Origin: an uncultured Candidatus Poseidoniales archaeon
GTDB lineage: Archaea; Thermoplasmatota; Poseidoniia; Poseidoniales; Thalassarchaeaceae
Assembly (NCBI GenBank): GCA_964401115.1
Contig: CAYNXD010000052.1
Coordinates: 14 to 64,013 of the forward strand
DNA: 64,000 bases
Direction: 5' to 3'
Shown: one piece after another, positions 36,883 to 54,115 of the stretch
Numbering within the stretch: position 1 is the stretch's first letter
Layout of the letters: the number at the start of each line of letters is the position of its first letter
Translations under genes and position numbers: made by a program
The notes under the pieces: generated by a model
Database searches by the model: none
What the model saw: the letters and a program-made list of their open reading frames with translations, nothing else
Told to the model about the DNA's origin: nothing

Positions 36883-37887
36883 ATGGACCCGTACAAAATG
36901 GTAATTTCATGCACCAACCAAAAGGGTGGATGTGCAAAAACTACCACTGCAGTTAACGTGGCCACTGCATTGGCAGAAGGTGATCCCTCAAGGGGCATTG
37001 AACCTTCCAAAGTACTGCTGGTTGATCTGGATCCACAAGGGAGTGCATCAACCTCATTTGGAATAAACAAAAGCAAACTAGAACGTACCGTGTATGATTT
37101 ACTGATGAACGACCTAGGTGAAGAATTACCAATTATCAAAGATTATCTAATAGGGCCAGAAATAATTACAGATTCAATGAGAGAAACTTGGATGAAGGCA
37201 AATGATGGAAAGAAACTCTCTAAGGCAAGGAAAAAATCATTGAAAGTTGAAAACCTGTGGCTTCTACCATCAAACATCCAATTATCAGGGGCTGAAATCG
37301 AATTAGCTACCAGAATTGGACGAGAAACTAGATTGAAAGAAGGTCTAGCATCTGCAATAAACGAGTTCGACTATATCATTATCGACACACCTCCGAGTTT
37401 GGGGTTGCTGACTATCAACGCACTAGCTGCATCTAATTGGGTTATGATTCCAGTTCAGACCGAATGGTATGCATTGGAGGGGATGAGTCAATTGATTAAT
37501 TCAATAAAGTTGGTTCAGATGAGAATAAACCCTAATCTCAAATTATTCGGTATCGCTTTGACGATGTATCAGCTGAGGAATAATCTAAGCAAAATAGTTT
37601 CCAAAGAAGTACGTGGATCAGCTTTCCATAAGGAAGTCTTTAGCACCATGATCCCTAGAAATTCTGACATCGCAGAAGCACCAATGGAAGGTGCTCCGGT
37701 CGTTTTGTTAAAAAAAGGAAATAGAACAAATAAAGGATCTCAAGCCTATTGGTCATTAGCCAAAGAAGTTTCTGATAGAGTAAAGAAAATGAGACATAAG
37801 TATGGAGTTTATGAAAAAAATCATTTAAAAATCCACAAATTAAACCAATCTAACGAAGACGATGCTTTGTCCGAACAACTAGAATAA
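36883..37887 (+). CDS. ParA/Soj-family partition ATPase (deviant Walker A) with internal insertion
   Basis: Deviant Walker A NQKGGCAKTTTAVNVATALA, LLVDLDPQGSAS, IIIDTPPSLG; ~50-aa insert relative to canonical Soj. Confidence 0.75.
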   Translation: MDPYKMVISCTNQKGGCAKTTTAVNVATALAEGDPSRGIEPSKVLLVDLDPQGSASTSFGINKSKLERTVYDLLMNDLGEELPIIKDYLIGPEIITDSMRETWMKANDGKKLSKARKKSLKVENLWLLPSNIQLSGAEIELATRIGRETRLKEGLASAINEFDYIIIDTPPSLGLLTINALAASNWVMIPVQTEWYALEGMSQLINSIKLVQMRINPNLKLFGIALTMYQLRNNLSKIVSKEVRGSAFHKEVFSTMIPRNSDIAEAPMEGAPVVLLKKGNRTNKGSQAYWSLAKEVSDRVKKMRHKYGVYEKNHLKIHKLNQSNEDDALSEQLE

Positions 37888-37900
37888 TCATACTAATGAG

Positions 37901-38203
37901 TTGTCAACTCACCGTCAAACTTCTATAGATGTCCTAAACCAACAGGGTTTAGGTGAGTTAATGGGTTCTCCAGATATGACATCAGTTAGTGTGAGTTTTG
38001 AAGTACGAAGGCAGTTAAATTCTATGCGGGCATTAGAAAATTACCAAAGCGTAGATGATCTTCTTCAACATCTTTTGAAGACCTATAGATTGAATAAACT
38101 CAACAGAGACAGTGAATCTCTTCAGGATTCCTTGAAATCGTTAAATGACGTGGATGTTAATGTTCTAATCTCTAAACTCGACCTATCGCCCTTCAAGGAG
38201 TGA
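37901..38203 (+). CDS. small ribbon-helix-helix (CopG/Arc-like) protein, candidate ParA partner
   Basis: Predicted beta-strand VSVSFEV followed by two helices (RRQLNSMRAL; SVDDLLQHLL); immediately downstream of parA and overlapping the next small ORF by 4 nt. Confidence 0.4.
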   Translation: MSTHRQTSIDVLNQQGLGELMGSPDMTSVSVSFEVRRQLNSMRALENYQSVDDLLQHLLKTYRLNKLNRDSESLQDSLKSLNDVDVNVLISKLDLSPFKE

Positions 38204-38460
38204 ATCAAATGAAGGGACAAGCGCCGTCATACTGGATTACTGCTGAGAACCTCGTTCGTGGCTTATTTGATGACATGAGTGATGAGCAGACCCTACTCAA
38301 ATTAGCATCTTGTAACGTAATAGAATTGCATGCGGGGAATAAAGTTTGGAATTCTTTTCTGTGGTTGCTTGTCAACCATATGAAGAGAGAAGGCGTACCT
38401 ATTCTTTCTGGTAAAGATTTGGGCGATTTACGAAGTCGCCTACCGATAGTTTTCCATTGA
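38200..38460 (+). CDS. hypothetical small protein (GTG start) co-transcribed with ParA/RHH pair
   Basis: Overlapping stop/start with the upstream ORF; no recognisable motif. Confidence 0.3.
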   Translation: MNQMKGQAPSYWITAENLVRGLFDDMSDEQTLLKLASCNVIELHAGNKVWNSFLWLLVNHMKREGVPILSGKDLGDLRSRLPIVFH

Positions 38461-38463
38461 AAA

Positions 38464-41022
38464 TTATTCTTTGTTATTGGCTTCCCACCACTGATGTCCG
38501 TAGTATACCCATTGCTCCATAGTCCAACCCATGGGCAACCCCCCTTCTGGTAGTTCAGGTGCCCCAGCTGGTAATTCGGTTGTAGTTGTCGCTGGTGTTG
38601 GTTGTTCCTCTACGGCAATGGGTTCTGGTTCTGGTTCTGGTTCAGGGGCTGTTGGGGATGATCCCTCGGTCAATCTCTGGATTAAGTCTGCCTTCTTACC
38701 AGATACTGGAAGACCTGCAGCCTTCAGTTGCTCTTTGAGTTGGGCCACTGTCATTGATTCGAAATCTGGAGTCCCGGAGTCAGGAACTACCGAACCATCA
38801 TCACTTTCTTCGAAGGAACTAGCATCGGGAACGACGCTAGGTTTGGATGCGGTATCATCATCAATATCCCAAAGTTGGTCTTCAGTAACACCATCACCTA
38901 GTTTTTCACCTTCCCATCCTTTCTCATCAGTAATACCACCTCGTGATTCGAATTCTTCACCCTCTTCCCATGCTTGCAATTCTTTTGTGGCATCCTGATG
39001 AGTATATTGTGCATCTGTGGCTCGCTTCGACACTGAAGTTCTTATCAGTCCAATTAATCCCCACATCGCAAGAATACCTGCAATAAGAGCAATACCAATT
39101 CCTCCACCATAAATTAGAAAATCTTTGATTAATTTATTCCTTTTTTCACTAGAAGATAACTCGCTATTGTCATTGTTGCTATCATCTAGTACATATTCTA
39201 CTTCACAATTATTGATATCATCTGAATATTTGTTACAATATTGATCTAACGTCCATACAGAAGGGTCGAGATCGTCCCAATCAGCATTATCTCCAACTCC
39301 GTCCCTGTCACTATCCACCCATTCAGATTTATTTGATGACCAATCCTGAGGTGGGTTTTCTGTTCTTTCACCACTATCTTCATACCCATCGCCATCTGAA
39401 TCAATACAACCAAATCTCTGAATTGTGACATACTTGTTCTGCTCAAAATCAAAGACAATCCCTCTAGTGCTATTGCCCCATTCATTAGGGCACCAATCTG
39501 GATTATTTCCATTCAGATTGTCACCATAGTTGTCATCATCTGTATCACACCATTGTGTATCATCTTGGGGATATTTGTCTGGGCCATTTGGATTAATTTC
39601 GGTGCATGGTATTTCGCCTTGTCTTGGGTTACTATATCCATCGCTATCTGAATCTGGACAGCCATTCCGGTCCTTGTTCGAATTACCAGGTGAATCTACA
39701 CAATCGTCAGGATTGGTACCATTGGGATTGTCCCCCAATCCATCACCATCACTGTCAGACCATTGTGATGAATCATTCGGGAAAGTATCGCCATCATAGC
39801 CGAGTGTATTATCGCCGTAGCCGTCACCATCACTGTCAATATACTGGTCCGCATTATTAGGGAAGGCATCTCCGTTTGTACCTCCGGGATTATCGCCCTT
39901 GCCATCGCCATCCGAATCTAGCCATTGACTAGGATCTTCGGGGAACCTATCTGGATTATTACCATTGGAATTGTCACCATATCCATCGCCGTCTTGATCT
40001 GTCTGTTGAGTTGAATCATGAGGAAAAGCATCAACTACATCTACTACTCCATCACCATCATTATCTGTATCAAACATCAAAATATCTGATTTGTCTGAGA
40101 ATGATGCTAGAACAAAGAATGAAGACCCTAGCCCTGACTTAATTCCAACTACATCGCCAAGTGAAGAGAACGACTCAATTTCTGACAAACTGCTACCATT
40201 GAGTATTGTCAAGTGGCCGTTGTGTGCTCCAACTAACAAATCACCGTTATCAGATTGTATTACTGTACGAATAATTCCTCCAGTTGAAAGTGTAATATCA
40301 CCAGTTTTTTGCCAATCTGTCGTAGAATATTTCAGTATTTGGCCGTCAACTGATGTTGCCAATAGGCTAGCCCCGTCATCGATAAGATATAGGCCTGAAA
40401 CCTCACCTTGAATATGCATCAAATCAGTATTTTTTGTCCCATTGCTTCCATAAGAGACACGGACAATTGAGTCCCTACCACCAGTAATAACAGAGCCATC
40501 TGAAAGACAAATTATGTTTGTGAGTTTAATTGAATGTTGTTGGGTGGTGACTTGAGATTCTGTTGTATCTTCAAACTTCATTGCAAAACCATATGCTCTA
40601 TCACTAACCCAAAGTTCCCCTTGACTACCCCAACTAACTGCATCAACACCACTTGAAACTGGAATAGTGTATAACATTGAATGGAGTTCAGTAGAAATTA
40701 CTCTTACCCCATTATCAGTACTCAGTGCCAAGCGATGTTGGACATTATCGATAGCCCCACTATTTATTGCAACACCAAGAGAGAGGTTCCATACTTTAGT
40801 TAATGCCCCACTCGCCTCAAAATCATAAGCTGCTATTTCTCCTGTGTTATTTGCAATTATTGTTAGCCCATCGTAGGATTCCCACCACCCCAACGTACTA
40901 TCCTCAAATTCAGTAATTGAGCCAGCGTTACCAAGGCTAGAAGCGGATGCAGGAGTTGATGCCATTAATGGTAATAAAATCGCAAGAATCAAAATTATAG
41001 TCAGTCCAAACTGGCGACGCAT
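38464..41022 (-). CDS. type-I membrane surface protein: signal peptide, beta-propeller-like domain, thrombospondin type-3 calcium-binding repeats, single TM, cytoplasmic acidic tail with SAP/HeH motif
   Basis: N-terminal signal MRRQFGLTIILILAILLPLMASTPASA; >10 DxDxDGxGD repeats (DSDGDGYGDN etc.); TM LIYGGGIGIALIAGILAMWGLIGLI followed by R/K; cytoplasmic MTVAQLKEQLKAAGLPVSGKKADLIQRL matches SAP/Rho-N HeH consensus; PEPEPEPEP linker and Trp-rich C-terminus. Confidence 0.7.
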   Translation of the reverse strand: MRRQFGLTIILILAILLPLMASTPASASSLGNAGSITEFEDSTLGWWESYDGLTIIANNTGEIAAYDFEASGALTKVWNLSLGVAINSGAIDNVQHRLALSTDNGVRVISTELHSMLYTIPVSSGVDAVSWGSQGELWVSDRAYGFAMKFEDTTESQVTTQQHSIKLTNIICLSDGSVITGGRDSIVRVSYGSNGTKNTDLMHIQGEVSGLYLIDDGASLLATSVDGQILKYSTTDWQKTGDITLSTGGIIRTVIQSDNGDLLVGAHNGHLTILNGSSLSEIESFSSLGDVVGIKSGLGSSFFVLASFSDKSDILMFDTDNDGDGVVDVVDAFPHDSTQQTDQDGDGYGDNSNGNNPDRFPEDPSQWLDSDGDGKGDNPGGTNGDAFPNNADQYIDSDGDGYGDNTLGYDGDTFPNDSSQWSDSDGDGLGDNPNGTNPDDCVDSPGNSNKDRNGCPDSDSDGYSNPRQGEIPCTEINPNGPDKYPQDDTQWCDTDDDNYGDNLNGNNPDWCPNEWGNSTRGIVFDFEQNKYVTIQRFGCIDSDGDGYEDSGERTENPPQDWSSNKSEWVDSDRDGVGDNADWDDLDPSVWTLDQYCNKYSDDINNCEVEYVLDDSNNDNSELSSSEKRNKLIKDFLIYGGGIGIALIAGILAMWGLIGLIRTSVSKRATDAQYTHQDATKELQAWEEGEEFESRGGITDEKGWEGEKLGDGVTEDQLWDIDDDTASKPSVVPDASSFEESDDGSVVPDSGTPDFESMTVAQLKEQLKAAGLPVSGKKADLIQRLTEGSSPTAPEPEPEPEPIAVEEQPTPATTTTELPAGAPELPEGGLPMGWTMEQWVYYGHQWWEANNKE

Positions 41023-41104: not shown

Positions 41105-43657
41105 TCATTCTTCCTCTTGTTCTTCTGACTCAACCGGGGTAAGAGTTGGCGTAACTGGAGTTAATTTTGCAACCTCTGATGGAGTCAGTATCTTACCACT
41201 GGTTTGTACAGGGCGCAAGGTAGCCGCTTCGCCTGTTTTAGGTTGTAATACCGGCCTGCTAACTGGTTTTAGAACATCTACTTTAGGTGATGCAGTGTCT
41301 TGTTTTGGACTTCTATCTAAATCTAGAATTGACGACTCCTCGTCTCTGATTAATCGTCCGCCACCTGGTGGCCCACGCTTTGGTTTATCAAGTGATGGCG
41401 CATCTTCTTGTGGAGGAGTCCTAACTAAGGCACCTCCACCTGGTGGCCCTCTAGATACCTTTTCTAGTATTGATGATGTGTCTTCTTCATCATCCCAATC
41501 ATCCTCTTCGACAATCTCAGGTGTTGTTGAAGGCAACTCCCCTCCAAGAGGTTTATGATCGACTATTTCACCTTGAGACGAAATCTCTTCCTTAGCAATA
41601 TCACTTAGAGACCGCTCGGGTTTATCAGGTGCGGCATCAATCTTGACTGGTGGCCTTACTGGAGATAGTCTGTCTGCTGAGGTAGAACCTATTGTAGGCC
41701 TAGGAATTGATGTTGCTGGCGTCACATCTTGCTTTTGACCGATAGGCGCACGGGCTGGAGCCAAACGCCCACCACCTTCGGGCTTGAGTGGTGTGCGTGT
41801 TTGAGCAGGGGCGCCCGTACCTAAACGAGCGGCGCTGGGTTGCCCCAGACGAGCGCCACCAAGTAAGCCACCGGCATCCCCTCCGGTTGCTGTCTCAGGC
41901 ATCTGTCCTTGAGCACCTTGTAATGCACCAATCCATCGCTCCCTTCGGGCGAGGACACCATCTTGAGACTCAAGATTTTCAACCTCTTCTTCCATCTGCT
42001 TGAGTCGAACTTCTTCTTCCAAATCTTCCTCGGATACTAGATTTCGTTCAAGTTGCCCTCTAATTTTCTCTTCGGCGACTTGCTTAAATTCTTCAGAACG
42101 TTGTTCTAGTGTGGCTAGACGCTCACGAATCTCTGTTCTCTTGACTGAAAGTTGCGCTTCAATTTCTGCCCTAATCTCTGCTTCCCTTCTTCGGACTTCA
42201 ATTAGTGCCTTGTTACGCATGATTTCTTCTCTCTTTGCCAATTGTCTCTCTAATTGATCTGTGACCTCATCTTCCTTACGGCTACGGAATTCCCTCAAAC
42301 GGGCCTCCATTTCAACTTCAAGTTCCATAGAAGTTTCCTGCTTTAACAAATCGAGTGATGTTTCTTGAGAAATTTTCTCATTTCTCACACGAGCATCAAT
42401 CTCAGCCATGATTTGACGTTGGACCGCTGTTTCTTTTGCTCTAAACTCCTGCTCCAATTGATCAATCCACTCTTGTTTTCGAGATTCAAATGAAGATGAC
42501 AGTTGCTCCCGTAATTCAATTTCTCTATCATGTCGGAATCTAGATAATCTGCTAGAAATTTCTGACTCGCGTGTCCTGCGATAAGCCTCAAAATCATTTG
42601 ACATTTGAACATCTAGATTATCTTCAATTTCAAGACTCAAGGCGTGCTCAATTTCATCGATTGACTGGCTGAAAGTCAAATCATACTTCTCACGCAGACG
42701 CTGTTTCCGTTCAGCTATGCGTTCCCCATATTGTTTCTGGAGTTCTGTCAAAATCGATGACCTTACTTCGTCCCTCTTTCTGGCCACAGCTAACTCAAGA
42801 TCCTGTTGCATTCTCTCTTCAAGTTTTTCAGTTTCAGATGTTAGCCTCTGTTCAAGTTCATCCTGGAGATCCTTTGCAATCTCTTCTTCAAGACGATGTG
42901 CCCTGTGTTCATATTCGCTCCTCAAACGAGCTTCACGTGCGCGCAGGCGTCCGCGCAGTTGCTGCTCTAGACGCCGTCGAATTCCATCACGCAACTGTAT
43001 TTCTCTTTCAGCAAGACGTGCTTGTTGTTCAGATTCTATAGTTTCAGATTGAATTTCCTCTTCAGATTTGAGTTGATTTTCCATTTCATCCTTCAATTCT
43101 GATTCAAGATTACTCAATTGTTCTTGAAGGGCTTGATTGGCCTCGATTTCCATCTTCTCTTGAAGGAAGGCGCGCCGACGTTCGAACTCTTGATCCATTT
43201 CATCAGAGAGTTGAGTTTGAATTTGGTCTCTACTTGCTGAAAGACGACGTTCTCTTTCCACTTCCAGTTGTTCTTTGAGGGATATCTCCTCCCTCTCTAA
43301 TCGCATATCTAATTCTTCACGAAGTATCTCTTCTTCTCTGCCGAGAGTTTCTTTCTCAAGTCTGGAAAGTTCTGATTCCATCTCCTCTCTCATTTCCGAT
43401 TCTAGATTTGTGAGAATTGATTCGTGCTCTAATTGCAGAGCCCTACCCATTGCACCTTTTGCAGTGCTGATTCTTTCAGCCTGCTCTTTAATCCTGAGTC
43501 TGCGCTCTCTTGTAAGATTTCTACGAAGTGATTCTTCTTCGTTTAGATTTGCAGAAATCTGACCTGCCCTATCTGCTGACGGAGATCCTGACCCTGTAAT
43601 TTGATGGCGTAATTCTGCGAGTGATTGATTGTCGCCAGCAACTACACTCTTCTTCAA
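41105..43657 (-). CDS. 850-aa Glu/Arg/Leu-rich long coiled-coil protein with Pro/Gly-rich C-terminal tail containing RGPPGGG repeats
   Basis: ~600 residues of uninterrupted E/R/L/Q heptad-like sequence without Walker or catalytic motifs; C-terminal low-complexity tail with two RGPPGGG copies; no TM. Confidence 0.6.
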   Translation of the reverse strand: MKKSVVAGDNQSLAELRHQITGSGSPSADRAGQISANLNEEESLRRNLTRERRLRIKEQAERISTAKGAMGRALQLEHESILTNLESEMREEMESELSRLEKETLGREEEILREELDMRLEREEISLKEQLEVERERRLSASRDQIQTQLSDEMDQEFERRRAFLQEKMEIEANQALQEQLSNLESELKDEMENQLKSEEEIQSETIESEQQARLAEREIQLRDGIRRRLEQQLRGRLRAREARLRSEYEHRAHRLEEEIAKDLQDELEQRLTSETEKLEERMQQDLELAVARKRDEVRSSILTELQKQYGERIAERKQRLREKYDLTFSQSIDEIEHALSLEIEDNLDVQMSNDFEAYRRTRESEISSRLSRFRHDREIELREQLSSSFESRKQEWIDQLEQEFRAKETAVQRQIMAEIDARVRNEKISQETSLDLLKQETSMELEVEMEARLREFRSRKEDEVTDQLERQLAKREEIMRNKALIEVRRREAEIRAEIEAQLSVKRTEIRERLATLEQRSEEFKQVAEEKIRGQLERNLVSEEDLEEEVRLKQMEEEVENLESQDGVLARRERWIGALQGAQGQMPETATGGDAGGLLGGARLGQPSAARLGTGAPAQTRTPLKPEGGGRLAPARAPIGQKQDVTPATSIPRPTIGSTSADRLSPVRPPVKIDAAPDKPERSLSDIAKEEISSQGEIVDHKPLGGELPSTTPEIVEEDDWDDEEDTSSILEKVSRGPPGGGALVRTPPQEDAPSLDKPKRGPPGGGRLIRDEESSILDLDRSPKQDTASPKVDVLKPVSRPVLQPKTGEAATLRPVQTSGKILTPSEVAKLTPVTPTLTPVESEEQEEE

Positions 43658-47755: not shown

Positions 47756-50700
47756 TCATTCTTCCTCATACAATGACGGTGTTGAAGTAATCACTTCGGG
47801 AGGGGGGCCTGCCCATTCAGGCCAATTATCCAGGCCCCAAGGTGGTGGTGGAGGCGTTTCTTCTATTTCCTCTTCATCATCTTCATCCCAATCCTCCTCA
47901 ACACGTTTTGAAATAGCAATTGCCATCACCATTACTGAAATGATTAAAATCAAAAATCCAAAGGCCATTGGAGTATTTATCGATGATAAAAAGGCCTCAC
48001 CTGTGGTTTGTTCTCGCACTAAACCAACAGGTACACTAGTCAAATTATTAGGATTATTATTTAGTACGATATAAAGTTGTAAATCACCAGCACTCCATGC
48101 CTCTACATTGAATGTGAATAGCGCGTGCTGCTGCGGCAATAATGAGATGTTTGTCTCATTAATAGTGATGTATCGGCCCCCATCGCCACTAGATTGCCAA
48201 GTCCACAAACCTACATTCGTCACACCCATATCATTACCTTCATTGTAAACTCGGCCATTGATAGTAAAAATCGTGTCCAGTGTTGGTTGATATGGATTTA
48301 CAGTCAAATCTGAAATAATAGGGTGGAAATAAATGACCCGCAGTTGTGGCATTCTTGGGTCATCTTCACTACCCACTCCAACGAATGAATGACCTGCTAA
48401 GTCTCTACCCTCTACCCACACTACCAAACTATCCCCGGGACTTAGTAACGTGTGATTAATATCGAAATCTATCCGAGTAGAATATGTCCAAATTCCATCA
48501 ATATTCGTTGCTAACGGTAGTTCGGCAACACCATGCATATCTAGAATTTCTACCCCATGCCTTCGGAAGGACCAATGCAAATTTAATGAATTATGATCCA
48601 TTCCACCAACTTCATGAATTTGAATTGTGACCAATTGCTGCGACATTTGATTAGAATTGATTGAACTCAAAGTAGCATTTGGAAAAGCAACTACTGGTGC
48701 GATGGAATCAATTACTAAATCTAGATTCATTGAACTAATTGGGACCGTCGAAACCCCTCCAGACAGCGTAGCAGTCACTTTTGCAACCCCATCATTCCAA
48801 CGAAACTGTGGAACTTGCGTTGTTGTTGTGAATATATGACCCGCACTGAGTTCTACGTCCCAAATCTCTGGTTCGTTTTGGCTATCATCCATACTAATGG
48901 TAACAACCCATTCCCCATCCAGTGTTACATTTTCTTGATTAGCCATATGAATCAGCCGACCTGAGAAATTGAAGCGGTCATCAGGTTGCAAATAGAGTGT
49001 TTGCTCTACTAAACCAACACCCGGAGGGGTGAGATCAAATGCCTGATCAAGAACTAAACCAGCCCTACCATCTGTTGTCCAAGCAAGATGGTTCAAAGTG
49101 CCACCCCCTAGCTCCAATAATTGACCATGTTCAACAATAGAAATACTCGGTGCTTGTGGAGTCAAATTCCATGATTGAGGGGCATCCGCCCCTATACGAA
49201 ATTGAATTGCCACATTGTACGAACCGCCTGCAAGTTCTGAGATCGTTACTCCAAGTGGAATTATTGGTGATGCTTCATTTACAGCAATTTCACCAGATAA
49301 CGGAGTAATCCAAATATCACCAAGAGGGTCCCCGGTTGCGAGATTTACGGAAATGTTGTCAAGTGAGATGATTCCATTACCATCTGATAATGAGAACGAA
49401 ATTTCATGTGTAGTCCCCACAAGCAGATTATCACCCCACCTATCTATTCGAATAGAGGGTAGTGAGAGTATTGTAGGGAGGTCCGCTTGCGTGGTGATCG
49501 TTGCCATATCATTATCTAAACCGGGTCCACCACCTTGCTCAACCGGATGGCCCGCTAAATCAGTCCCCGTCACATACAGAGATACCCTGCCCATCTCTCC
49601 ATTTCCAATTAAATCGATTGCAGGGAAATCTACTCTTACAGTACCCTGTGCCTTCATAGGAGTAATTTGTCTAGAAATTGAGTATTCCCAATCATCAGCC
49701 TCAGAGTCGCCATCGACATCATCAATCCCTTCCCTCCAAACACGGAGTTCCAATGGCCCTCCAAACGATTCGGTTTCAGTGACTTCTACAGAAATTGGTA
49801 ACAAACGATCTTCTGGCCAAACGTTTCCATCTGCTAATCTAACACCACTAGGGGTATGTACCATCAACGGAGATAGAATTGGTGGATTGGAATCTATCAT
49901 CAAAGTCACTGGCGTTCTATCTTTTGTTTCATCTGTTGCACCATTTAGAGAAACGCCGCTAGGACCTGGCCTAAGTATCCATGATGTTAGGTTAATTTCA
50001 CCACTGTTTTCATTGAGAGTTACTGTTGCATTCCAGTATCCATCTTCGCCACTCAAAGCTGCAACTTGGTAATCAGAAGATGCCCCCTCAATTTGAATTG
50101 TGACCAAGAAATTATCATTTGATGGCCGCATATTTGAATCTTCAAAACGGACCGTGCCCGATACTTTAACCAAAGAACCGGAGGCTATCTCAAATGGATA
50201 AGATGGAGATTGACGAGTAGAAAGAAGACGATTGTCAGCACCCCTGACTTCCCAAGAATCTATCTCCATGTCATTTTCAACCGCTTTGGAAACCGTTCCA
50301 ATTCTGACATTATCAGCAGGTAAATGTTCCCCATTAATCCCCCATGATTCTGCTGAGATATCTATCCAGTCAACATCATCCCAGCCCCATTCAGTTTGTA
50401 ATTCCCACTTAATTCGCCAGCCATTATCAATTTGCATAACTGAACTAGCTGTAGAATTTATTGAGATTTGGCCACCACCCCCATATTGGTAGAATACCCC
50501 CCCAGAATCTAGATTTTCTGCTTCAAAGGTGATCAAGAAACCTTCTTGGGTTAGGAGTGAAAGATTTGCGCGCACAAGTTCATCTGCTGAAAACAAATGT
50601 GTGTGCTCTGTAGTTATGATTGTCTTCCTATCAGGTAACCAAGTCTGGGGAACTGATACGACTTCATTGACGATTAGTGGTTCGTGCTCTACACCGCCCC

Positions 50701-53700
50701 ACAAAGAGACACCACCTGCTTCAGCAGTCACCGTTACCGGGATTTCATGCATACCATTTACTGCTGATGTAGAATTCATTGACGAAGAAATTGTTTGGCC
50801 GAGATTAGATATGTTCTCCTTCAAAATATAATTGATTCCGTAAATTATAATCTGTGTTGGGCCAGTTGAATCTAAGGAAATTGGAACTTGTTTCCAATCT
50901 CTTGAATCATTAGGCCATTGATTGGCAGCCAAATTGTTGATTGATTGAATTACTCCTGAATTAAGAGGGACCATTAATCCAATATCATTGGGTAACGTTT
51001 GTTGATTCAGAAGTAATGAACCACCAATTGAAAGGTTTAGAATCACAGATTGTTGATTGGTTTGAACCCCAACCAGACCCCCTGTAACAATTGCCCCCTC
51101 TGGAATTAGAAGGTGCGCGGGGTTCTGATTATTAGATTGGATATCTACTGTTGCCGCCCTTGAATTGGAATTCATCAGAGAATCCTGCCAACCTAGTTGG
51201 CCACGCCCATCATTTCCTTCAGAAAATGCCCATTCTATTGAGCCATCATTTCCAACATCAACAGAGACATTCAGCCCTGGTTGTAATAATCTCCCTTTGA
51301 CTTGGAGTGACTGTAGCCATGCTCCTGGTTGCAAGTTAATCTGAATTCTGTATGCAGTTAGTGGAGTGTTTCTCTGCACTGTTACGTTGCTCAATGCTCC
51401 ACTGTAAAATGGGACATCCCTCTCGTCTAGAAGTGTAACGATGGTTCCCAAACCGTAACCAGAGATATCGAAGGAACGTATTGGATTGTTGCCATAAATA
51501 AGTGGCCCTAAAATTGAACTTGTGGATAAACTAGGGTTCGTCAAATTACCAGATGATTTATTCAACTCTAATGATGGAGATACCGTCCAACCGTTAGTTG
51601 CATCTCTAGCTGAAAAAATGCCAACTGCACCAAGATATAATCCGTGAATCGTGGGTGTTAGTTGAGGGATGTCTGTGCCCATTTCTAATTTTATTCTCAT
51701 CTTAGAATCAAGCGCACCCGGTAATGGAATTACAGGGAAGCTTAGATTTTCCATCCCTGGTGCAACGGAACCATTTTCGTACAACAAAGTACAACGTATC
51801 CATGTCCCGTTTGGAACTGTTGCATCTACGTCGATTGCCCCCATACTACCCCTATTCGTGTCAATTGGATCGGATATCCAAGTACCATGCTCTTCAAACC
51901 AATCAACATAGAGACCTACGTCATCAAGATACCAACCGTCTGATTCCAAGAACTGATCTGTAAAGAATGAAAATCTAAGGCGAATACCTTGACCACTAAA
52001 TTGGGTTACATCTGCTTGTTTGGTTTCCCATGATTTGTTAACACCCGTACCTCTTTGACCATTACATGTGGGTACTGAATTGCTGCCATCAAAAGCCCAT
52101 AAATTGTATATCTCTGAGTATGGATTCATGGTTTGCCTAGAATCATAGAAATTTGGTTCATTAGCACCGTAAGGAATCCAATTGCGTCCGTCATCATTGG
52201 AAATGTACAGCACCCCCCCATCCCAATACTGCTCAGCACAAACAAATTGTTTGAAGGAAATTCTAGCATGACTATTTGCAGGAACGTTAAATGTTGGAGA
52301 GATTAGATGTGTCCAAGTGTCTGGACGATACAATCCCCCGAATTCAATTCCAGCATAATGCGAACCGTTCGCAGGAGCATCTGGGCCGTAATTCCATGTG
52401 TTATTATGTGAGCGGAATTCCCAACCTTCTCCCCTAATAGTATCTATTCTCCACCCTTCTGGTAAAAGTGGGGCATCTTCAAATGAATCTACTTGAAAAC
52501 TCGGTCCATTGATTCCGTAAAAAGGTAAATATTGCCACTCGTCATATCCATTCCCAATACTTCCATGGTATGCATTGCCATCATTAATATCTGAGAAATT
52601 TAGGTTTAGGTGAGTTGTCTGATTACCAGCTGTTCCAGAAGTCACGATTACATCATCTATGAACAACCCTTCAGGTGGGTTCATCGTTAATCCGCCATAA
52701 CCAGTTCCGGGAAAATTGTCGGTCTCAATATTTACCCTCAAGAATACTGATGAGTTCCCTGCTAGTGTTTGAGGAAGTGGATGAGAGAGGTGTCTCCAAC
52801 CATTTGAATCATCTACATATCTCACCCCACCGATAACAACTCCGAATCCAGGCATATCTGCAGAGAATGAATTCCAAGTGAAATTATTGATAGACCATTC
52901 CCATCGGAAATTGTCATAAATGTCCCCTTCCATGTCAAAATCTGCAGCATAATCTAACATTATTGGACCACTTGCATTTGAAAGATTAACTTCGAATGAA
53001 AGAAATGAAGAGGAGCCATCAAAATAAGGGCCGGTCAAATTACCATGAAACCATGCACCTGCATCAGCACCAGAATTTGTTAGATTTAGATTATCTATAA
53101 ACCAACCAGGGCGCTGTACCGTTGAGTTCAAATCAGTCCAAGCAACAAAACGGAAGCGAACTGTACTAGCATTTGCAATTCCTGGATAATTGTCGAGATG
53201 GAAAACTGCCTGTTGCCAGCCTGTTGCATTGGGTGAAGCCCACACTTCAAAATTTGAGCCCCCACTGCCATTGGGTGATGGGGCCGCTGAATTTATTCGA
53301 TTGTTGTATCCTCCTTCTGGAGTGATGTAACTCCATGATTGGCCTCCATCAGTACTCATCTCAACCCAAACCCCATCAGCATTACCTGAACCAATTGAAG
53401 GAGTATACATGTGATGCCAATGTGAAAATGTTAGATTGAAACCGTTAATGACTGGTGGAACGTAAAAATCTGGTGAATCTATCCAAGTGTGGACTCCATT
53501 GGGCAATGACTGATCTGCCATTGTGGCAATTATGTAGCGGCCGGTTACAGCACCAATAGGGATTAAACCCCCGCTAGATTCTCTTGCAGAACCATTCAAT
53601 TGACCAGGGATTCCGAGCATATCACTTACTTCCCAGACCCCTGGCGTACCCCCTGTGGTCCAATCTTGCAAAGTACGTGTTAGAGATTCAAAATCATTGA

Positions 53701-54115
53701 TTCTACCTACTGAATGATTCGAATCTAAACTCAATGCACCATCAAAAAATTCAGTTGTTGTAGAATTCCATAAACCCCAACTAAAATTCAGTTTGCCTTG
53801 TGCCCCTTCTTCCCAAACAATACCAGTACCTAAATCTGAATTACTTGCTTCACCAACTTCAAGCCAAGCATCCAAAATTGTTTCACCCTCTGGTATTGAA
53901 AAACCTGTTATTGTAGTATTCCCCCCATTACCACCCAGGTCTGCTACGATTGGCCCTGACCAATTAGATAGAGTAGATGAAGCAAAAGGTGTCATAGGTG
54001 TTAGAATGAAAATTAAGACGATGAAAAATGAGCGCCTCGACATCGAATTACGCAACATAGGTCTGCCTCCGCACAATCCTGTGTGCCCTTTCTTGGTTTG
54101 AATGCTATCCAACAA
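47756..54115 (-). CDS. giant (2119 aa) secreted, C-terminally TM-anchored surface protein with Asp-box/BNR repeats and many N-glycosylation sequons; candidate S-layer/adhesin
   Basis: Signal-like N-terminus RRSFFIVLIFILTPMTPFASS; Asp-box motifs MSTDGGQSWSY and SNDDGRNW; abundant NxS/T; C-terminal TM AFGFLILIISVMVMAIAI then KR and acidic/Pro/Trp tail. Confidence 0.6.
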   Translation of the reverse strand: MLDSIQTKKGHTGLCGGRPMLRNSMSRRSFFIVLIFILTPMTPFASSTLSNWSGPIVADLGGNGGNTTITGFSIPEGETILDAWLEVGEASNSDLGTGIVWEEGAQGKLNFSWGLWNSTTTEFFDGALSLDSNHSVGRINDFESLTRTLQDWTTGGTPGVWEVSDMLGIPGQLNGSARESSGGLIPIGAVTGRYIIATMADQSLPNGVHTWIDSPDFYVPPVINGFNLTFSHWHHMYTPSIGSGNADGVWVEMSTDGGQSWSYITPEGGYNNRINSAAPSPNGSGGSNFEVWASPNATGWQQAVFHLDNYPGIANASTVRFRFVAWTDLNSTVQRPGWFIDNLNLTNSGADAGAWFHGNLTGPYFDGSSSFLSFEVNLSNASGPIMLDYAADFDMEGDIYDNFRWEWSINNFTWNSFSADMPGFGVVIGGVRYVDDSNGWRHLSHPLPQTLAGNSSVFLRVNIETDNFPGTGYGGLTMNPPEGLFIDDVIVTSGTAGNQTTHLNLNFSDINDGNAYHGSIGNGYDEWQYLPFYGINGPSFQVDSFEDAPLLPEGWRIDTIRGEGWEFRSHNNTWNYGPDAPANGSHYAGIEFGGLYRPDTWTHLISPTFNVPANSHARISFKQFVCAEQYWDGGVLYISNDDGRNWIPYGANEPNFYDSRQTMNPYSEIYNLWAFDGSNSVPTCNGQRGTGVNKSWETKQADVTQFSGQGIRLRFSFFTDQFLESDGWYLDDVGLYVDWFEEHGTWISDPIDTNRGSMGAIDVDATVPNGTWIRCTLLYENGSVAPGMENLSFPVIPLPGALDSKMRIKLEMGTDIPQLTPTIHGLYLGAVGIFSARDATNGWTVSPSLELNKSSGNLTNPSLSTSSILGPLIYGNNPIRSFDISGYGLGTIVTLLDERDVPFYSGALSNVTVQRNTPLTAYRIQINLQPGAWLQSLQVKGRLLQPGLNVSVDVGNDGSIEWAFSEGNDGRGQLGWQDSLMNSNSRAATVDIQSNNQNPAHLLIPEGAIVTGGLVGVQTNQQSVILNLSIGGSLLLNQQTLPNDIGLMVPLNSGVIQSINNLAANQWPNDSRDWKQVPISLDSTGPTQIIIYGINYILKENISNLGQTISSSMNSTSAVNGMHEIPVTVTAEAGGVSLWGGVEHEPLIVNEVVSVPQTWLPDRKTIITTEHTHLFSADELVRANLSLLTQEGFLITFEAENLDSGGVFYQYGGGGQISINSTASSVMQIDNGWRIKWELQTEWGWDDVDWIDISAESWGINGEHLPADNVRIGTVSKAVENDMEIDSWEVRGADNRLLSTRQSPSYPFEIASGSLVKVSGTVRFEDSNMRPSNDNFLVTIQIEGASSDYQVAALSGEDGYWNATVTLNENSGEINLTSWILRPGPSGVSLNGATDETKDRTPVTLMIDSNPPILSPLMVHTPSGVRLADGNVWPEDRLLPISVEVTETESFGGPLELRVWREGIDDVDGDSEADDWEYSISRQITPMKAQGTVRVDFPAIDLIGNGEMGRVSLYVTGTDLAGHPVEQGGGPGLDNDMATITTQADLPTILSLPSIRIDRWGDNLLVGTTHEISFSLSDGNGIISLDNISVNLATGDPLGDIWITPLSGEIAVNEASPIIPLGVTISELAGGSYNVAIQFRIGADAPQSWNLTPQAPSISIVEHGQLLELGGGTLNHLAWTTDGRAGLVLDQAFDLTPPGVGLVEQTLYLQPDDRFNFSGRLIHMANQENVTLDGEWVVTISMDDSQNEPEIWDVELSAGHIFTTTTQVPQFRWNDGVAKVTATLSGGVSTVPISSMNLDLVIDSIAPVVAFPNATLSSINSNQMSQQLVTIQIHEVGGMDHNSLNLHWSFRRHGVEILDMHGVAELPLATNIDGIWTYSTRIDFDINHTLLSPGDSLVVWVEGRDLAGHSFVGVGSEDDPRMPQLRVIYFHPIISDLTVNPYQPTLDTIFTINGRVYNEGNDMGVTNVGLWTWQSSGDGGRYITINETNISLLPQQHALFTFNVEAWSAGDLQLYIVLNNNPNNLTSVPVGLVREQTTGEAFLSSINTPMAFGFLILIISVMVMAIAISKRVEEDWDEDDEEEIEETPPPPPWGLDNWPEWAGPPPEVITSTPSLYEEE

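What the first reader, a model, noticed from the sequence alone, without database searches (positions are those of the whole stretch)
38464..38760. SAP/HeH (Rho-N-like) DNA-binding motif on the cytoplasmic tail of a surface protein
The segment MTVAQLKEQLKAAGLPVSGKKADLIQRL fits the SAP consensus (L-x2-L-K-V-x-E-L-K-x2-L-x2-x-G-L-x3-G-x-K-x2-L-I-x-R-L) almost perfectly. It lies after a TM helix that is followed by basic residues, which favours a cytoplasmic location. Membrane-anchored HeH proteins are the hallmark of eukaryotic inner-nuclear-membrane chromatin tethers and are very unusual in archaea. A PEPEPEPEP spacer and a Trp-rich C-terminus follow.
Basis: seen in the sequence. Interest (0 to 1): 0.65.

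Follow-up and report, generated by a model that had tools for sequence, protein, structure and literature searches.

The report
SAP domain on archaeal envelope-protein tail
A marine archaeon (Poseidoniales) has a real SAP nucleic-acid-binding module in the cytoplasmic tail of a conserved cell-surface protein, but it is a sporadic add-on shared with two of the organism's ribosomal proteins, not a relative of the eukaryotic nuclear-membrane chromatin tethers.

Summary
The ORF at 38464..41022 (-), 852 aa, contains a bona fide SAP domain at aa 753-786 (Pfam 49.8 bits against a cut-off of 23.9). AlphaFold2 models it as helix-loop-helix at pLDDT 84-92. Its best PDB relatives are the Tho1, MKL1 and Ku70 SAP domains.

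The protein has a signal peptide, a 7-blade beta-propeller, nine Ca-type DxDxDG repeats, one TM helix and a 192-aa acidic, mostly disordered tail. Charge counts across 90 family members place the tail in the cytoplasm.

The domain is SAP, not LEM/HeH or Rho_N, and nothing else resembles inner-nuclear-membrane proteins.

The host protein is a single-copy, syntenic family across Poseidoniales. Only 10 of about 92 close relatives carry SAP, in three separate terminal clades, and none of about 41 GTDB species representatives does. Within its clade the SAP is under purifying selection (dN/dS 0.10, against 0.19-0.26 for the flanking linkers).

Its closest relatives (22-25 of 28 residues) are SAP-plus-acidic-linker modules fused to Poseidoniales ribosomal proteins eL32 and eS1.

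Best reading: a lineage-specific, selected, sequence-independent nucleic-acid anchor under the membrane. Whether it binds DNA or RNA is unresolved. I class it as a new variant of a known kind, of moderate interest.

The parts
38464..41022 (-). Whole gene, 852 aa plus stop: a type I envelope protein of Poseidoniales with a SAP-bearing cytoplasmic tail
   Evidence: ORF list. 3214 homologues, with named ones from Thalassarchaeaceae, Poseidoniales and MGII. Purifying selection in every region.
40939..41022 (-). Signal peptide (aa 1-28, MRR + hydrophobic core + ASA|S)
   Evidence: Hydropathy peak at aa 3-23. AF2 helix at aa 2-20 followed by a low-confidence linker.
40066..40935 (-). Extracellular 7-blade WD40-like beta-propeller (aa 30-319)
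   Evidence: AF2 pLDDT 85-96. Foldseek against PDB finds WDR5, RACK1 and similar with target TM-score about 0.8 and E about 1e-15. Pfam beta-propeller hits are all below their cut-offs.
39223..40065 (-). Thrombospondin-type-3-like Ca-binding repeat region (aa 320-600) with 9 DxDxD[GN] motifs and conserved Cys pairs
   Evidence: Motif count. Invariant D/G/C columns in a 56-sequence alignment. AF2 pLDDT above 90. Sources name relatives as thrombospondin type 3 repeat proteins.
39043..39120 (-). Single transmembrane helix (aa 635-660)
   Evidence: Hydropathy 2.1-2.5. AF2 continuous helix at aa 625-665.
38887..39042 (-). Conserved juxtamembrane cytoplasmic motif (aa 661-712; RTSVSKRATDAQYTHQDATKEL..RGGI..KGWE)
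   Evidence: Invariant G695, G696 and W703. dN/dS 0.047. No Pfam family.
38767..38886 (-). Acidic disordered linker 1 (aa 713-752)
   Evidence: pLDDT below 50. dN/dS 0.19. Not alignable across clades.
38665..38766 (-). SAP domain (aa 753-786; core MTVAQLK..LIQRL at 38671-38754)
   Evidence: Pfam SAP 49.8-53.6 bits. PDB sequence hits to MKL1, Tho1 and Ku70 SAP. AF2 helices at aa 759-768 and 777-787 with pLDDT 84-92. Foldseek top hits are SAP domains. dN/dS 0.10.
38563..38664 (-). Pro/Glu-rich linker 2 with the PEPEPEPEP spacer (aa 787-820)
   Evidence: pLDDT below 50. dN/dS 0.26. The number of PE units differs between the window and its 100%-identical database cluster P0001.
38467..38562 (-). 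Family-invariant Trp-rich C-terminal motif (aa 821-852; APxLPxGGLPxGWTMEQWxYYGxQWW)
   Evidence: Invariant P825, G828, L829, P830, G832, W833, Q837, W838, Y841, G842 and W845. Present in 92 of 120 hits. AF2 helix at aa 835-848, pLDDT 74-81. No Pfam or PDB match.
41105..43657 (-). Context only: upstream co-directional gene for an 850-aa E/R/L-rich coiled-coil protein with a Pro/Gly-rich C-terminus. It is always the neighbour of this family. A functional link is not shown.
   Evidence: Translation. No Pfam family. No hydrophobic segment. Same neighbour in L001, L002 and L003.
36883..38460 (+). Context only: convergent Soj/ParA-type ATPase (36883-37887) followed by two small ORFs (37901-38203, 38200-38460). 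The synteny is conserved order-wide. A functional link is not shown.
   Evidence: Pfam AAA_31, CbiA and MipZ. PDB hits to ParA and Soj at E down to 2e-57 and to Sulfolobus SegA 7dut at 2e-14. The small ORFs have no match. Synteny.

Best explanation
The gene encodes a type I envelope protein found across the Poseidoniales. From N- to C-terminus it has a signal peptide, an extracellular WD40-like propeller, thrombospondin-type-3-like Ca repeats, one TM helix, and a long acidic, disordered cytoplasmic tail. The invariant parts of the tail are a juxtamembrane motif and a Trp-rich C-terminal motif.

In the lineage of this window (a Thalassarchaeaceae-like clade) and in two other small clades, a 35-aa SAP module has been inserted into the variable linker of that tail. 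The module belongs to a pool of 'SAP + acidic linker' modules resident in Poseidoniales genomes, where they are fused to ribosomal proteins eL32 (N-terminus) and eS1/S3Ae (C-terminus).

Proposed mechanism: the SAP hangs on a flexible leash of about 90 residues under the membrane. It gives the tail a weak, sequence-independent affinity for duplex nucleic acid, most likely nucleoid DNA. This holds nucleic acid at the inner face of the envelope, or conversely couples this surface protein to the nucleoid. It is an accessory function, not the core function of the family.

Shown: domain identity, fold, topology indicators, patchy distribution, purifying selection, and kinship with the ribosomal-protein SAPs. 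Inferred: nucleic-acid binding, the identity of the ligand (DNA rather than RNA), and the direction of module transfer.
For: - Domain identity: Pfam 49.8-53.6 bits against a cut-off of 23.9. A profile search of the PDB returns almost only SAP domains: MKL1 1.1e-9, Tho1 2.6e-8, Ku70 4.4e-8, pTAC3, SAF-A-like and SARNP.
- Fold: AF2 pLDDT 84-92 with two helices separated by an 8-residue loop. Foldseek ranks Tho1, E1B-AP5, Hcc-1 and MKL1 first, with the DNA-bound SAPs of DEK, FAN1 and Ku70 in the list.
- Conserved positions: the V, L, K, V-S-G, K, L and R positions of the SAP core are invariant in all 15 Poseidoniales SAPs aligned.
- Cytoplasmic location: signal peptide plus one TM helix; positive-inside counts over 90 relatives; 9 Cys outside and 0 in the tail.
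- Accessory, inserted module: an NJ tree of the ectodomain puts the SAP-bearing proteins in three terminal clades nested among SAP-less orthologues. None of about 41 full-length orthologues in GTDB species genomes has it. Synteny is the same with and without SAP.
- Selection: dN/dS is 0.10 in SAP against 0.19 and 0.26 in the two flanking linkers, with synonymous sites near saturation.
- Kinship: the window SAP shares 24-25 of 28 core residues with eL32-linked SAPs and 22-24 of 28 with eS1-linked SAPs. It shares only 18-21 of 28 with the tail SAPs of the other two clades. SAP-acidic-eL32 is one continuous ORF in 56 of 56 informative metagenome contigs. eS1-acidic-SAP proteins are continuous, and one carries the same PDFESMTV lead-in as the window.
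- Literature: the Ku70 SAP raises DNA affinity and aids loading onto DNA (PMC11936186).
Against: - No binding experiment exists. SAP domains also bind RNA (3'hExo appears; Tho1 and SARNP from my own knowledge) and proteins (MANF/CDNF SAP-like domain with BiP).
- The domain is net neutral (5 K/R, 5 D/E) and sits in a tail with 42 acidic residues out of 192, pI 4.1. That tail would repel or compete with nucleic acid.
- The nearest relatives are on ribosomal proteins, which points towards RNA or the ribosome as much as towards DNA.
- About 90% of orthologues do without the module, so any tethering role is dispensable.
- Three independent gains cannot be told apart from one gain with many losses. 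The direction of transfer between ribosomal proteins and the tail cannot be settled with 28 residues.
Confidence: 0.45

Rival explanations
1. RNA or ribosome anchor. The SAP binds structured RNA (rRNA or mRNA) or a ribosomal surface, as its closest relatives on eL32 and eS1 may do. The tail would then recruit ribosomes or mRNA to the membrane next to this protein, for example for local co-translational insertion.
For: The nearest relatives of the tail SAP are modules fused to eL32 and eS1. SAP folds that contact RNA appear in the fold search (3'hExo with histone mRNA stem-loop). The gene lies in a translation-rich neighbourhood with aIF5B and L24e/S28e/L7Ae, though that is only synteny.
Against: In eL32 and eS1 the SAP sits at the end of a 40-100-residue polyacidic linker. 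That geometry suggests reaching away from the rRNA surface rather than docking on it. The best sequence and fold matches are DNA-binding SAPs. There is no direct evidence for either ligand.
Confidence: 0.2
2. Protein-protein adaptor. The SAP-like helix-loop-helix recruits a cytoplasmic protein (a chaperone, a segregation factor or the neighbouring coiled-coil protein) rather than nucleic acid.
For: SAP-like domains of MANF/CDNF bind the BiP nucleotide-binding domain, and the PIAS1 SAP region binds p53. Both appear in the fold hits. The domain is charge-neutral in an acidic context. A coiled-coil protein and a ParA ATPase are conserved neighbours.
Against: MANF and CDNF rank below the classical SAPs and have lower probability. 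The neighbours are equally conserved in the roughly 90% of lineages that lack the SAP, so they cannot be SAP-specific partners. The consensus positions (LK, SGKK, RL) are invariant; I take these to be the nucleic-acid-contacting positions from my own knowledge.
Confidence: 0.12
3. Neutral passenger. A small, autonomously folding module was duplicated into a tolerant disordered linker and has no function there.
For: Sporadic distribution. The insertion lies in the fastest-evolving, low-confidence part of the tail. The linker also tolerates changes in PE-repeat length.
Against: Among five orthologues whose synonymous sites are near saturation (pS about 0.6), SAP keeps dN/dS 0.10. That is lower than the propeller (0.155) and roughly half or less of the adjacent linkers. 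The core is nearly identical from 71% to 100% overall identity. The same module has been retained in three separate clades.
Confidence: 0.1
4. Membrane-bound one-component regulator (ToxR/CadC-like, or released by intramembrane proteolysis). The ectodomain senses a ligand and the cytoplasmic SAP acts on specific promoters.
For: The architecture pairs an extracellular ligand-binding-type domain with one TM helix and a cytoplasmic DNA-binding-type domain.
Against: SAP domains are not known to be sequence-specific operators (my own knowledge). Most orthologues lack the module but keep the rest of the tail. No site-2-protease or regulator partner is in the conserved neighbourhood.
Confidence: 0.05
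5. The tail is extracellular, and the SAP-like segment acts outside the cell, for example on extracellular DNA.
For: In the window protein alone the charge bias across the TM helix is weak: 4 K/R before it and 3 after.
Against: An N-terminal signal peptide plus a single further TM helix forces the C-terminus inside. Over 90 relatives the flank after the helix is strongly positive and the flank before it is acidic. Cys pairs and Ca-type repeats are all N-terminal to the helix, and the tail has no Cys.
Confidence: 0.03

Closest known systems
Eukaryotic SAP domains (Pfam PF02037; Tho1, MKL1/myocardin, Ku70, SAF-A/E1B-AP5, SARNP/Hcc-1, PIAS/SIZ1, DEK, FAN1, plastid pTAC3)
   Same: The sequence profile matches above the curated threshold. 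The two-helix fold with an extended loop is the same, and the conserved L-K / G-L / S-G-K-K / L-I-x-R-L positions are present. Identity to Tho1 and MKL1 is 40-42% over about 40 residues.
   Different: The host is an archaeon and the carrier is a single-pass envelope protein. The module sits in the middle of a polyacidic disordered tail rather than in a nuclear protein.
Inner-nuclear-membrane LEM/HeH proteins (Heh1/Src1, Heh2, MAN1, LEM2, LAP2, emerin)
   Same: The concept is shared: a helix-extension-helix module held at a membrane face that looks onto the genome. The general fold class is the same.
   Different: Pfam HeH is below threshold and there is no LEM match. Emerin LEM ranks only 31st in the fold search. 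There is no MSC domain. The protein has one TM helix plus a signal peptide rather than two TM helices. The nucleic-acid module is C-terminal to the membrane span. It has a large extracellular domain. The SAP is present in only about 10% of orthologues. There is no evidence of common descent beyond the fold.
Poseidoniales ribosomal proteins eL32 (N-terminal SAP + acidic linker) and eS1/S3Ae (acidic linker + C-terminal SAP), seen here
   Same: 22-25 of 28 identical core residues. The D-[YF]-E-S-M-T-V lead-in is shared, and both are associated with long acidic linkers.
   Different: The carriers are soluble ribosomal proteins. There the module is terminal, whereas in the envelope protein it is internal to the tail.
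Prokaryotic and plastid membrane-nucleoid tethers (for example B. subtilis Noc and RacA-DivIVA, the ToxR/CadC class, and chloroplast PEND/MFP1); named from my own knowledge, not tested here
   Same: The proposed logic is the same: a DNA-binding module held at the cytoplasmic or stromal face of a membrane.
   Different: The DNA-binding folds are different (ParB-like, wHTH, bZIP-like). None uses SAP on the tail of a propeller/TSP3 surface protein. Those systems have demonstrated DNA binding; this one does not.
Rho N-terminal domain (Rho_N, PF07498)
   Same: A related helix-extended-helix fold class that occurs in prokaryotes.
   Different: There is no Pfam Rho_N hit even at E<=10 on the tail. 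No Rho chain appears in the PDB sequence searches. Rho ranks 40th with probability 0.28 in the fold search.

Membership tests
SAP domain (PF02037) | Profile match above Pfam's gathering score | tested here: met
   49.8 bits on the whole protein and 53.6 bits on the tail, against 23.9; profile positions 1-34 of 37.
SAP domain (PF02037) | Two amphipathic helices separated by an extended loop with a conserved Gly | tested here: met
   AF2 helices at aa 759-768 and 777-787, loop AAGLPVSG, pLDDT 84-92. Foldseek match to Tho1 SAP with rmsd 2.6 A over 43 columns, probability 1.00 but E=0.044.
SAP domain (PF02037) | Binds DNA or RNA | not testable with these tools
   Needs EMSA or anisotropy with the recombinant domain.
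LEM/HeH inner-nuclear-membrane proteins (Heh1/2, MAN1, LEM2) | HeH/LEM-type domain above threshold (PF12949 or the Pfam LEM model) | tested here: not met
   HeH scores 15.7 and 20.0 bits against a cut-off of 28.9. LEM is not reported at E<=10.
LEM/HeH inner-nuclear-membrane proteins (Heh1/2, MAN1, LEM2) | MSC (MAN1-Src1 C-terminal) domain and two TM segments, with the N-terminal HeH facing the genome | tested here: not met
   No MSC hit. The protein has a signal peptide plus one TM helix, and the SAP is C-terminal to the TM helix.
Rho_N (PF07498) | Profile match or structural best match to the Rho N-terminal subdomain | tested here: not met
   Absent from the Pfam output at E<=10. Rho chains rank 40 and 45 with probability 0.28 or less.
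Poseidoniales propeller-TSP3 envelope protein family (unnamed) | Full-length collinear homology, the same domain order, and the invariant C-terminal LPxGWTxxQWxxYG motif | tested here: met
   33-87% identity over 91-100% of the length to the ~750-880-aa family proteins among the 120 listed. Invariant columns. The motif is in 92 of 120 hits.
Poseidoniales propeller-TSP3 envelope protein family (unnamed) | Conserved genomic position: downstream of the ~880-aa coiled-coil gene, convergent with two small ORFs, ParA and MoxR | tested here: met
   The window has the same order as L001, L002 and L003.
Thrombospondin type 3 repeat proteins (PF02412) | Pfam TSP_3 match, or DxDxDGxxDxxD calcium-binding repeats | tested here: inconclusive
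   No PF02412 hit at E<=1 for this protein. There are 9 DxDxD[GN] motifs with invariant Asp/Gly columns, and relatives are annotated PF02412 or TSP3.
WD40-like beta-propeller | Seven-bladed propeller fold | tested here: met
   Foldseek against WDR5 and RACK1 gives target TM-score 0.78-0.82 and E about 1e-15. Pfam propeller families are all below their cut-offs, so membership holds at fold level only.

The most novel reading that the evidence does not exclude
Poseidoniales may use one common 'SAP on an acidic leash' tag to attach several machines to the same nucleic-acid scaffold. Ribosomes would attach through eL32 and eS1, and in some lineages an envelope adhesin-like protein would attach through its tail. 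In those lineages this would physically couple nucleoid, ribosomes and cell envelope, giving a prokaryotic, convergently evolved counterpart of membrane-chromatin tethering (a hard-wired form of transertion).
Probability: 0.15. Interest if true: 0.75.

Novelty: new variant of a known kind. Interest (0 to 1): 0.45.

Why it matters
SAP is mainly a eukaryotic nuclear module. Here it is a resident, reused module of an abundant but uncultured marine archaeal order. It is fused to two ribosomal proteins and, in a few lineages, to the cytoplasmic tail of a conserved surface protein.

If the tail SAP binds DNA, it would be a simple, testable example of envelope-nucleoid coupling in archaea, which has hardly been explored. 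It would also show that membrane-anchored helix-extension-helix tethers can arise by domain shuffling outside eukaryotes.

If it binds RNA or ribosomes, it would point to localised translation at the envelope.

Either way, the result cautions against reading the architecture as an evolutionary precursor of inner-nuclear-membrane HeH proteins. The evidence favours convergence, and the function is dispensable.

Tried and rejected
1. LEM/HeH or Rho_N identity. Rejected on Pfam scores and fold ranking.

2. Extracellular tail. Rejected by the signal peptide plus one TM helix and by family-wide charge counts.

3. Programmed TAG read-through between a small SAP ORF and L32e. Two assemblies (L004, L090) suggested it. 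I rejected it because 56 of 56 informative metagenome contigs have one continuous SAP-acidic-L32e ORF. The two TAGs are single-base differences from GAG or TAY at that position.

4. A search with a 45-aa SAP query returned only 37 short fragments. It led to the ribosomal-protein context but gave no census.

5. A profile search of 1.84 billion representatives gave 14,584 hits. The top 150 are dominated by multi-SAP repeat proteins without taxonomy. A few combine SAP repeats with TM helices (P0231, P0185, P0281), but their origin could not be established.

6. Literature searches for SAP in Poseidoniales or archaeal membranes, for SAP with L32e, and for SAP with ribosomal proteins in Thermoplasmatota found nothing relevant.

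7. The two small ORFs after ParA have no Pfam or PDB sequence match. A SegB-like ribbon-helix-helix reading remains my own untested impression.

8. The family-invariant C-terminal Trp-rich motif and the juxtamembrane motif match no Pfam or PDB entry. Their function stays unexplained.

9. The overlapping 155-aa plus-strand ORF at 38531..38998 is treated as a shadow of the conserved minus-strand gene.
Full report
**1. What is at the coordinates**

The finding's span (38464-38760) is the 3' end of a minus-strand ORF, 38464..41022, of 852 aa. The quoted peptide MTVAQLKEQLKAAGLPVSGKKADLIQRL is aa 757-784 (window 38671-38754).

Pfam SAP (PF02037) matches aa 753-786 with E=2.4e-13 and 49.8 bits on the whole protein. 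On the tail alone it gives 1.5e-14 and 53.6 bits. The curated cut-off is 23.9 bits. A SAP HMM built from the Poseidoniales SAP segments found here hits no other place in the six-frame translation of the window.

The TM helix followed by RTSVSKR, the PEPEPEPEP spacer and the Trp-rich end are all present.

**2. Which helix-extension-helix family**

- Pfam HeH (PF12949) reaches only 15.7 and 20.0 bits, below its cut-off of 28.9.
- LEM and Rho_N are not reported even at E<=10 on the tail.
- Sequence searches of the PDB return SAP domains almost exclusively. With the single sequence: MKL1 2.8e-6 and Tho1 2.7e-5. With a 10-sequence tail profile: MKL1 1.1e-9, Tho1 2.6e-8, Ku70 4.4e-8, then pTAC3, E1B-AP5, Hcc-1 and SIZ1.
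- AlphaFold2 on a 56-sequence alignment folds aa 750-790 as helix 759-768, an 8-residue loop, and helix 777-787, at pLDDT 84-92.
- Foldseek with a tail-only model ranks Tho1, E1B-AP5, Hcc-1 and MKL1 first. The SAPs of 3'hExo, DEK, FAN1 and Ku70 follow. Emerin LEM is 31st and Rho is 40th. All E-values are above 0.01, as expected for a 35-residue domain, so this is a ranking and not an independent proof.

**3. The carrier protein and its topology**

The AF2 model and hydropathy analysis give this layout:

| Region | Residues | Notes |
|---|---|---|
| Signal peptide | 1-28 | MRR + hydrophobic core + ASA\|S |
| Beta-propeller | 30-319 | pLDDT about 90; Foldseek to WDR5/RACK1, target TM-score about 0.8 |
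| Ca-type repeat region | 320-600 | pLDDT above 90; nine DxDxD[GN] motifs; invariant Cys pairs |
| TM helix | 635-660 | single span |
| Cytoplasmic tail | 661-852 | 192 aa; below pLDDT 50 except the SAP and the last ~35 residues |

A signal peptide followed by one TM helix puts the tail in the cytoplasm. In the window protein alone the charge bias is weak (4 K/R before the helix, 3 after). Over 90 relatives it is clear: K+R 5.0 after against 1.7 before, and D+E 1.1 against 4.5. All nine Cys lie in the ectodomain.

The tail is very acidic (42 D/E in 192 aa, pI 4.1), and the SAP itself is net neutral.

**4. Organism, family and neighbourhood**

The homologues are from Marine Group II archaea. 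Source names include Candidatus Thalassarchaeaceae, Poseidoniales and Poseidoniaceae. Rinke et al. (PMC6461757) note widespread thrombospondin-type genes in this order and link them to adhesion.

The ~800-aa family is collinear over its full length. It has invariant tail residues at G695, G696 and W703, and in the C-terminal P-x2-GLP-x-GW-x3-QW-x2-YG-x2-W motif.

It always sits in the same place. It is downstream of a ~880-aa coiled-coil protein, and convergent with two ~80-aa ORFs, a Soj/ParA ATPase, a MoxR ATPase, aIF5B, NDK, and L24e/S28e/L7Ae. This order holds whether or not the SAP is present. The gene therefore looks like a single-copy orthologue in a core region. A functional link to ParA or to the coiled-coil protein is not shown.

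**5. The SAP is a sporadic insertion**

Among the 120 best hits, 92 carry the family's C-terminal motif and only 10 carry the SAP. In an NJ tree of the ectodomain these 10 form three separate terminal clades, each nested among SAP-less orthologues: P0001-6 with the window, P0025-26, and P0069-70. None of about 41 full-length orthologues from GTDB species-representative genomes has a SAP.

SAP-less sisters keep the juxtamembrane motif, an acidic linker, a PE-rich stretch and the C-terminal motif. The SAP is a clean block of about 45 residues in the unalignable linker.

**6. It is nevertheless maintained**

I compared five clade-i orthologues (71-100% protein identity) whose synonymous sites are near saturation (pS about 0.6). 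The dN/dS values are:

| Region | dN/dS |
|---|---|
| SAP | 0.10 |
| Flanking linker 1 | 0.19 |
| Flanking linker 2 | 0.26 |
| Beta-propeller | 0.155 |
| TSP3 region | 0.044 |
| TM helix + juxtamembrane motif | 0.047 |

This argues against a neutral passenger. The sample is small and the method simple (Nei-Gojobori).

**7. Where the module comes from**

Searching with the SAP segment returned short proteins that are 70-84% identical to it. Their contigs show they are parts of ribosomal-protein genes.

- One type lies between L6 and L32e in the spc operon. A scan of metagenome contigs shows that SAP, acidic linker and L32e form one continuous ORF in 56 of 56 informative contigs.
- The other type is the C-terminus of S3Ae/eS1. 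It is confirmed as continuous proteins carrying PF01015 plus PF02037, for example P0398, P0365 and P0414.

The window's SAP shares 24-25 of 28 core residues with the eL32 modules and 22-24 with the eS1 modules. It shares only 18-21 with the tail SAPs of the other two clades. One eS1 protein has the same PDFESMTV lead-in.

The simplest reading is a Poseidoniales-internal pool of 'SAP + acidic linker' modules from which the tail acquired copies, perhaps more than once. Twenty-eight residues cannot prove either the direction or the number of events.

**8. Mechanism**

Shown:
- A folded SAP on a ~90-residue disordered leash at the cytoplasmic face of a surface protein.
- It is under selection.
- It is related to modules on ribosomal proteins.

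Inferred:
- It binds duplex nucleic acid without sequence specificity, as SAP domains generally do. The Ku70 SAP raises DNA affinity and aids loading (PMC11936186), and the DEK, FAN1 and Ku70 SAPs are seen on DNA in the fold hits.
- I commit to nucleoid DNA as the most likely ligand (0.45).
- RNA or the ribosome is the main rival (0.2), because of the ribosomal-protein kinship.
- One point tips me towards an off-ribosome ligand such as DNA. In eL32 and eS1 the SAP sits at the end of long polyacidic linkers, which suggests projection away from the rRNA surface. This is weak reasoning.
- Protein binding, a neutral passenger, a ToxR-like regulator and an extracellular tail are less likely, for the reasons given under the rival explanations.

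About 90% of orthologues lack the SAP, so whatever it does is an accessory to the family's core tail function. That core function presumably resides in the invariant juxtamembrane and Trp-rich motifs and remains unknown.

**9. Comparison with known systems**

- It is a member of the SAP domain family (tested and met).
- It is not a member of the LEM/HeH inner-nuclear-membrane family (HeH/LEM and MSC features tested and not met; reversed topology).
- It is not Rho_N.
- It may work like a membrane-genome tether, but by convergence. Poseidoniales are not close to the eukaryotic stem, and the trait is patchy within the order.
- Metagenomes contain other proteins that combine SAP repeats with TM helices (P0231, P0185, P0281). 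The combination is therefore rare but not unique. Their origin is unknown.

**10. Verdict**

This is a new variant of a known kind: a SAP module in a new carrier and cellular position.

Interest is moderate (0.45). The architecture is unusual and testable, and the ribosomal-protein SAP fusions add weight. Against that, the module is sporadic and dispensable, and its ligand is unproven.

Noticed in passing
L097-L176 (metagenome contigs), e.g. L097 ~330-1014; also L004 3779-4429, L005 6001-6234: In Poseidoniales, ribosomal protein L32e (eL32) carries an N-terminal SAP domain plus a 40-100-residue polyacidic linker, as one continuous ORF. This holds in 56 of 56 informative contigs. The gene lies between L6 and L19e in the spc operon. 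I found no mention of this in the paper library.
   Followed up: yes
P0398, P0365, P0414 (proteins); L092 1826-2569, L093 859-1602: Ribosomal protein S3Ae (eS1) of many Poseidoniales carries an acidic linker plus a C-terminal SAP domain. About 20 of 97 hits have PF01015 plus PF02037. Other lineages appear to lack it (e.g. P0324, 242 aa).
   Followed up: partly
L004 4010-4012 and L090 1723-1725: Two assemblies have an in-frame TAG between the SAP-acidic part and the L32e part, with no canonical start codon after it. Other contigs have GAG or TAY at that position. This is most likely an assembly or sequence error or a rare nonsense allele, not conserved recoding.
   Followed up: yes
window 38467-38562 and 38887-39042; alignment A1: The truly invariant parts of the tail are a juxtamembrane motif (DAQYxHQDAT..RGGI..KxW) and the C-terminal PPLPxGGLPxGWTMEQWxWYGxxW motif. 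Neither matches any Pfam or PDB entry. Their partner and function are unknown.
   Followed up: partly
P0053, P0060, P0071, P0074 and similar (1350-1490-aa TSP3 proteins): Other large Poseidoniales TSP3 surface proteins also end in a TM helix followed by different Trp/Tyr-rich cytoplasmic C-termini (for example GYEWLKDESGIDWYRAADSGDEWAKFES and QQWEENGVHWSRDANGALSYYDAQSGAWVAYQ). Aromatic-rich cytoplasmic tails may be a common theme for surface proteins of this order.
   Followed up: no
window 41105-43657 (-): An 850-aa protein consists of about 560 residues of E/R/L/Q-rich predicted coiled coil, then a Pro/Gly-rich disordered C-terminus with repeated RGPPGGGxLxR motifs. It has no Pfam family and no hydrophobic segment. 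It is always immediately upstream of the envelope-protein gene across the order.
   Followed up: partly
window 36883-38460 (+): A Soj/ParA-type ATPase (best PDB hits are a ParA family protein and Thermus Soj; Sulfolobus SegA at 2e-14) is followed by two conserved ~80-100-aa ORFs with no database match. The first (37901-38203) looks to me like a possible ribbon-helix-helix, which would suggest a SegAB-like partition locus. This was not tested.
   Followed up: partly
window ~38620-38646 (PEPEPEPEP) compared with P0001: The database cluster that is otherwise 100% identical (P0001, 854 aa) has one more PE unit and a P-to-S change next to it. This is microsatellite-like length variation in the spacer between near-identical genomes.
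   Followed up: no
P0231 (L094 612-1076), P0185, P0281: Metagenomic proteins of unknown origin combine tandem SAP repeats with C-terminal TM helices, for example a 154-aa protein with 2 SAP and 2 TM seen in 8 cluster members. Membrane-anchored SAP proteins therefore exist outside this family.
   Followed up: partly
window 47756-54115 (-): A 2119-aa ORF lies upstream in the same conserved neighbourhood. Its counterparts in L001 and L003 carry hits to the InhA-like MAM domain (faint in L001, unmarked in L003). It is probably another giant surface protein.
   Followed up: no
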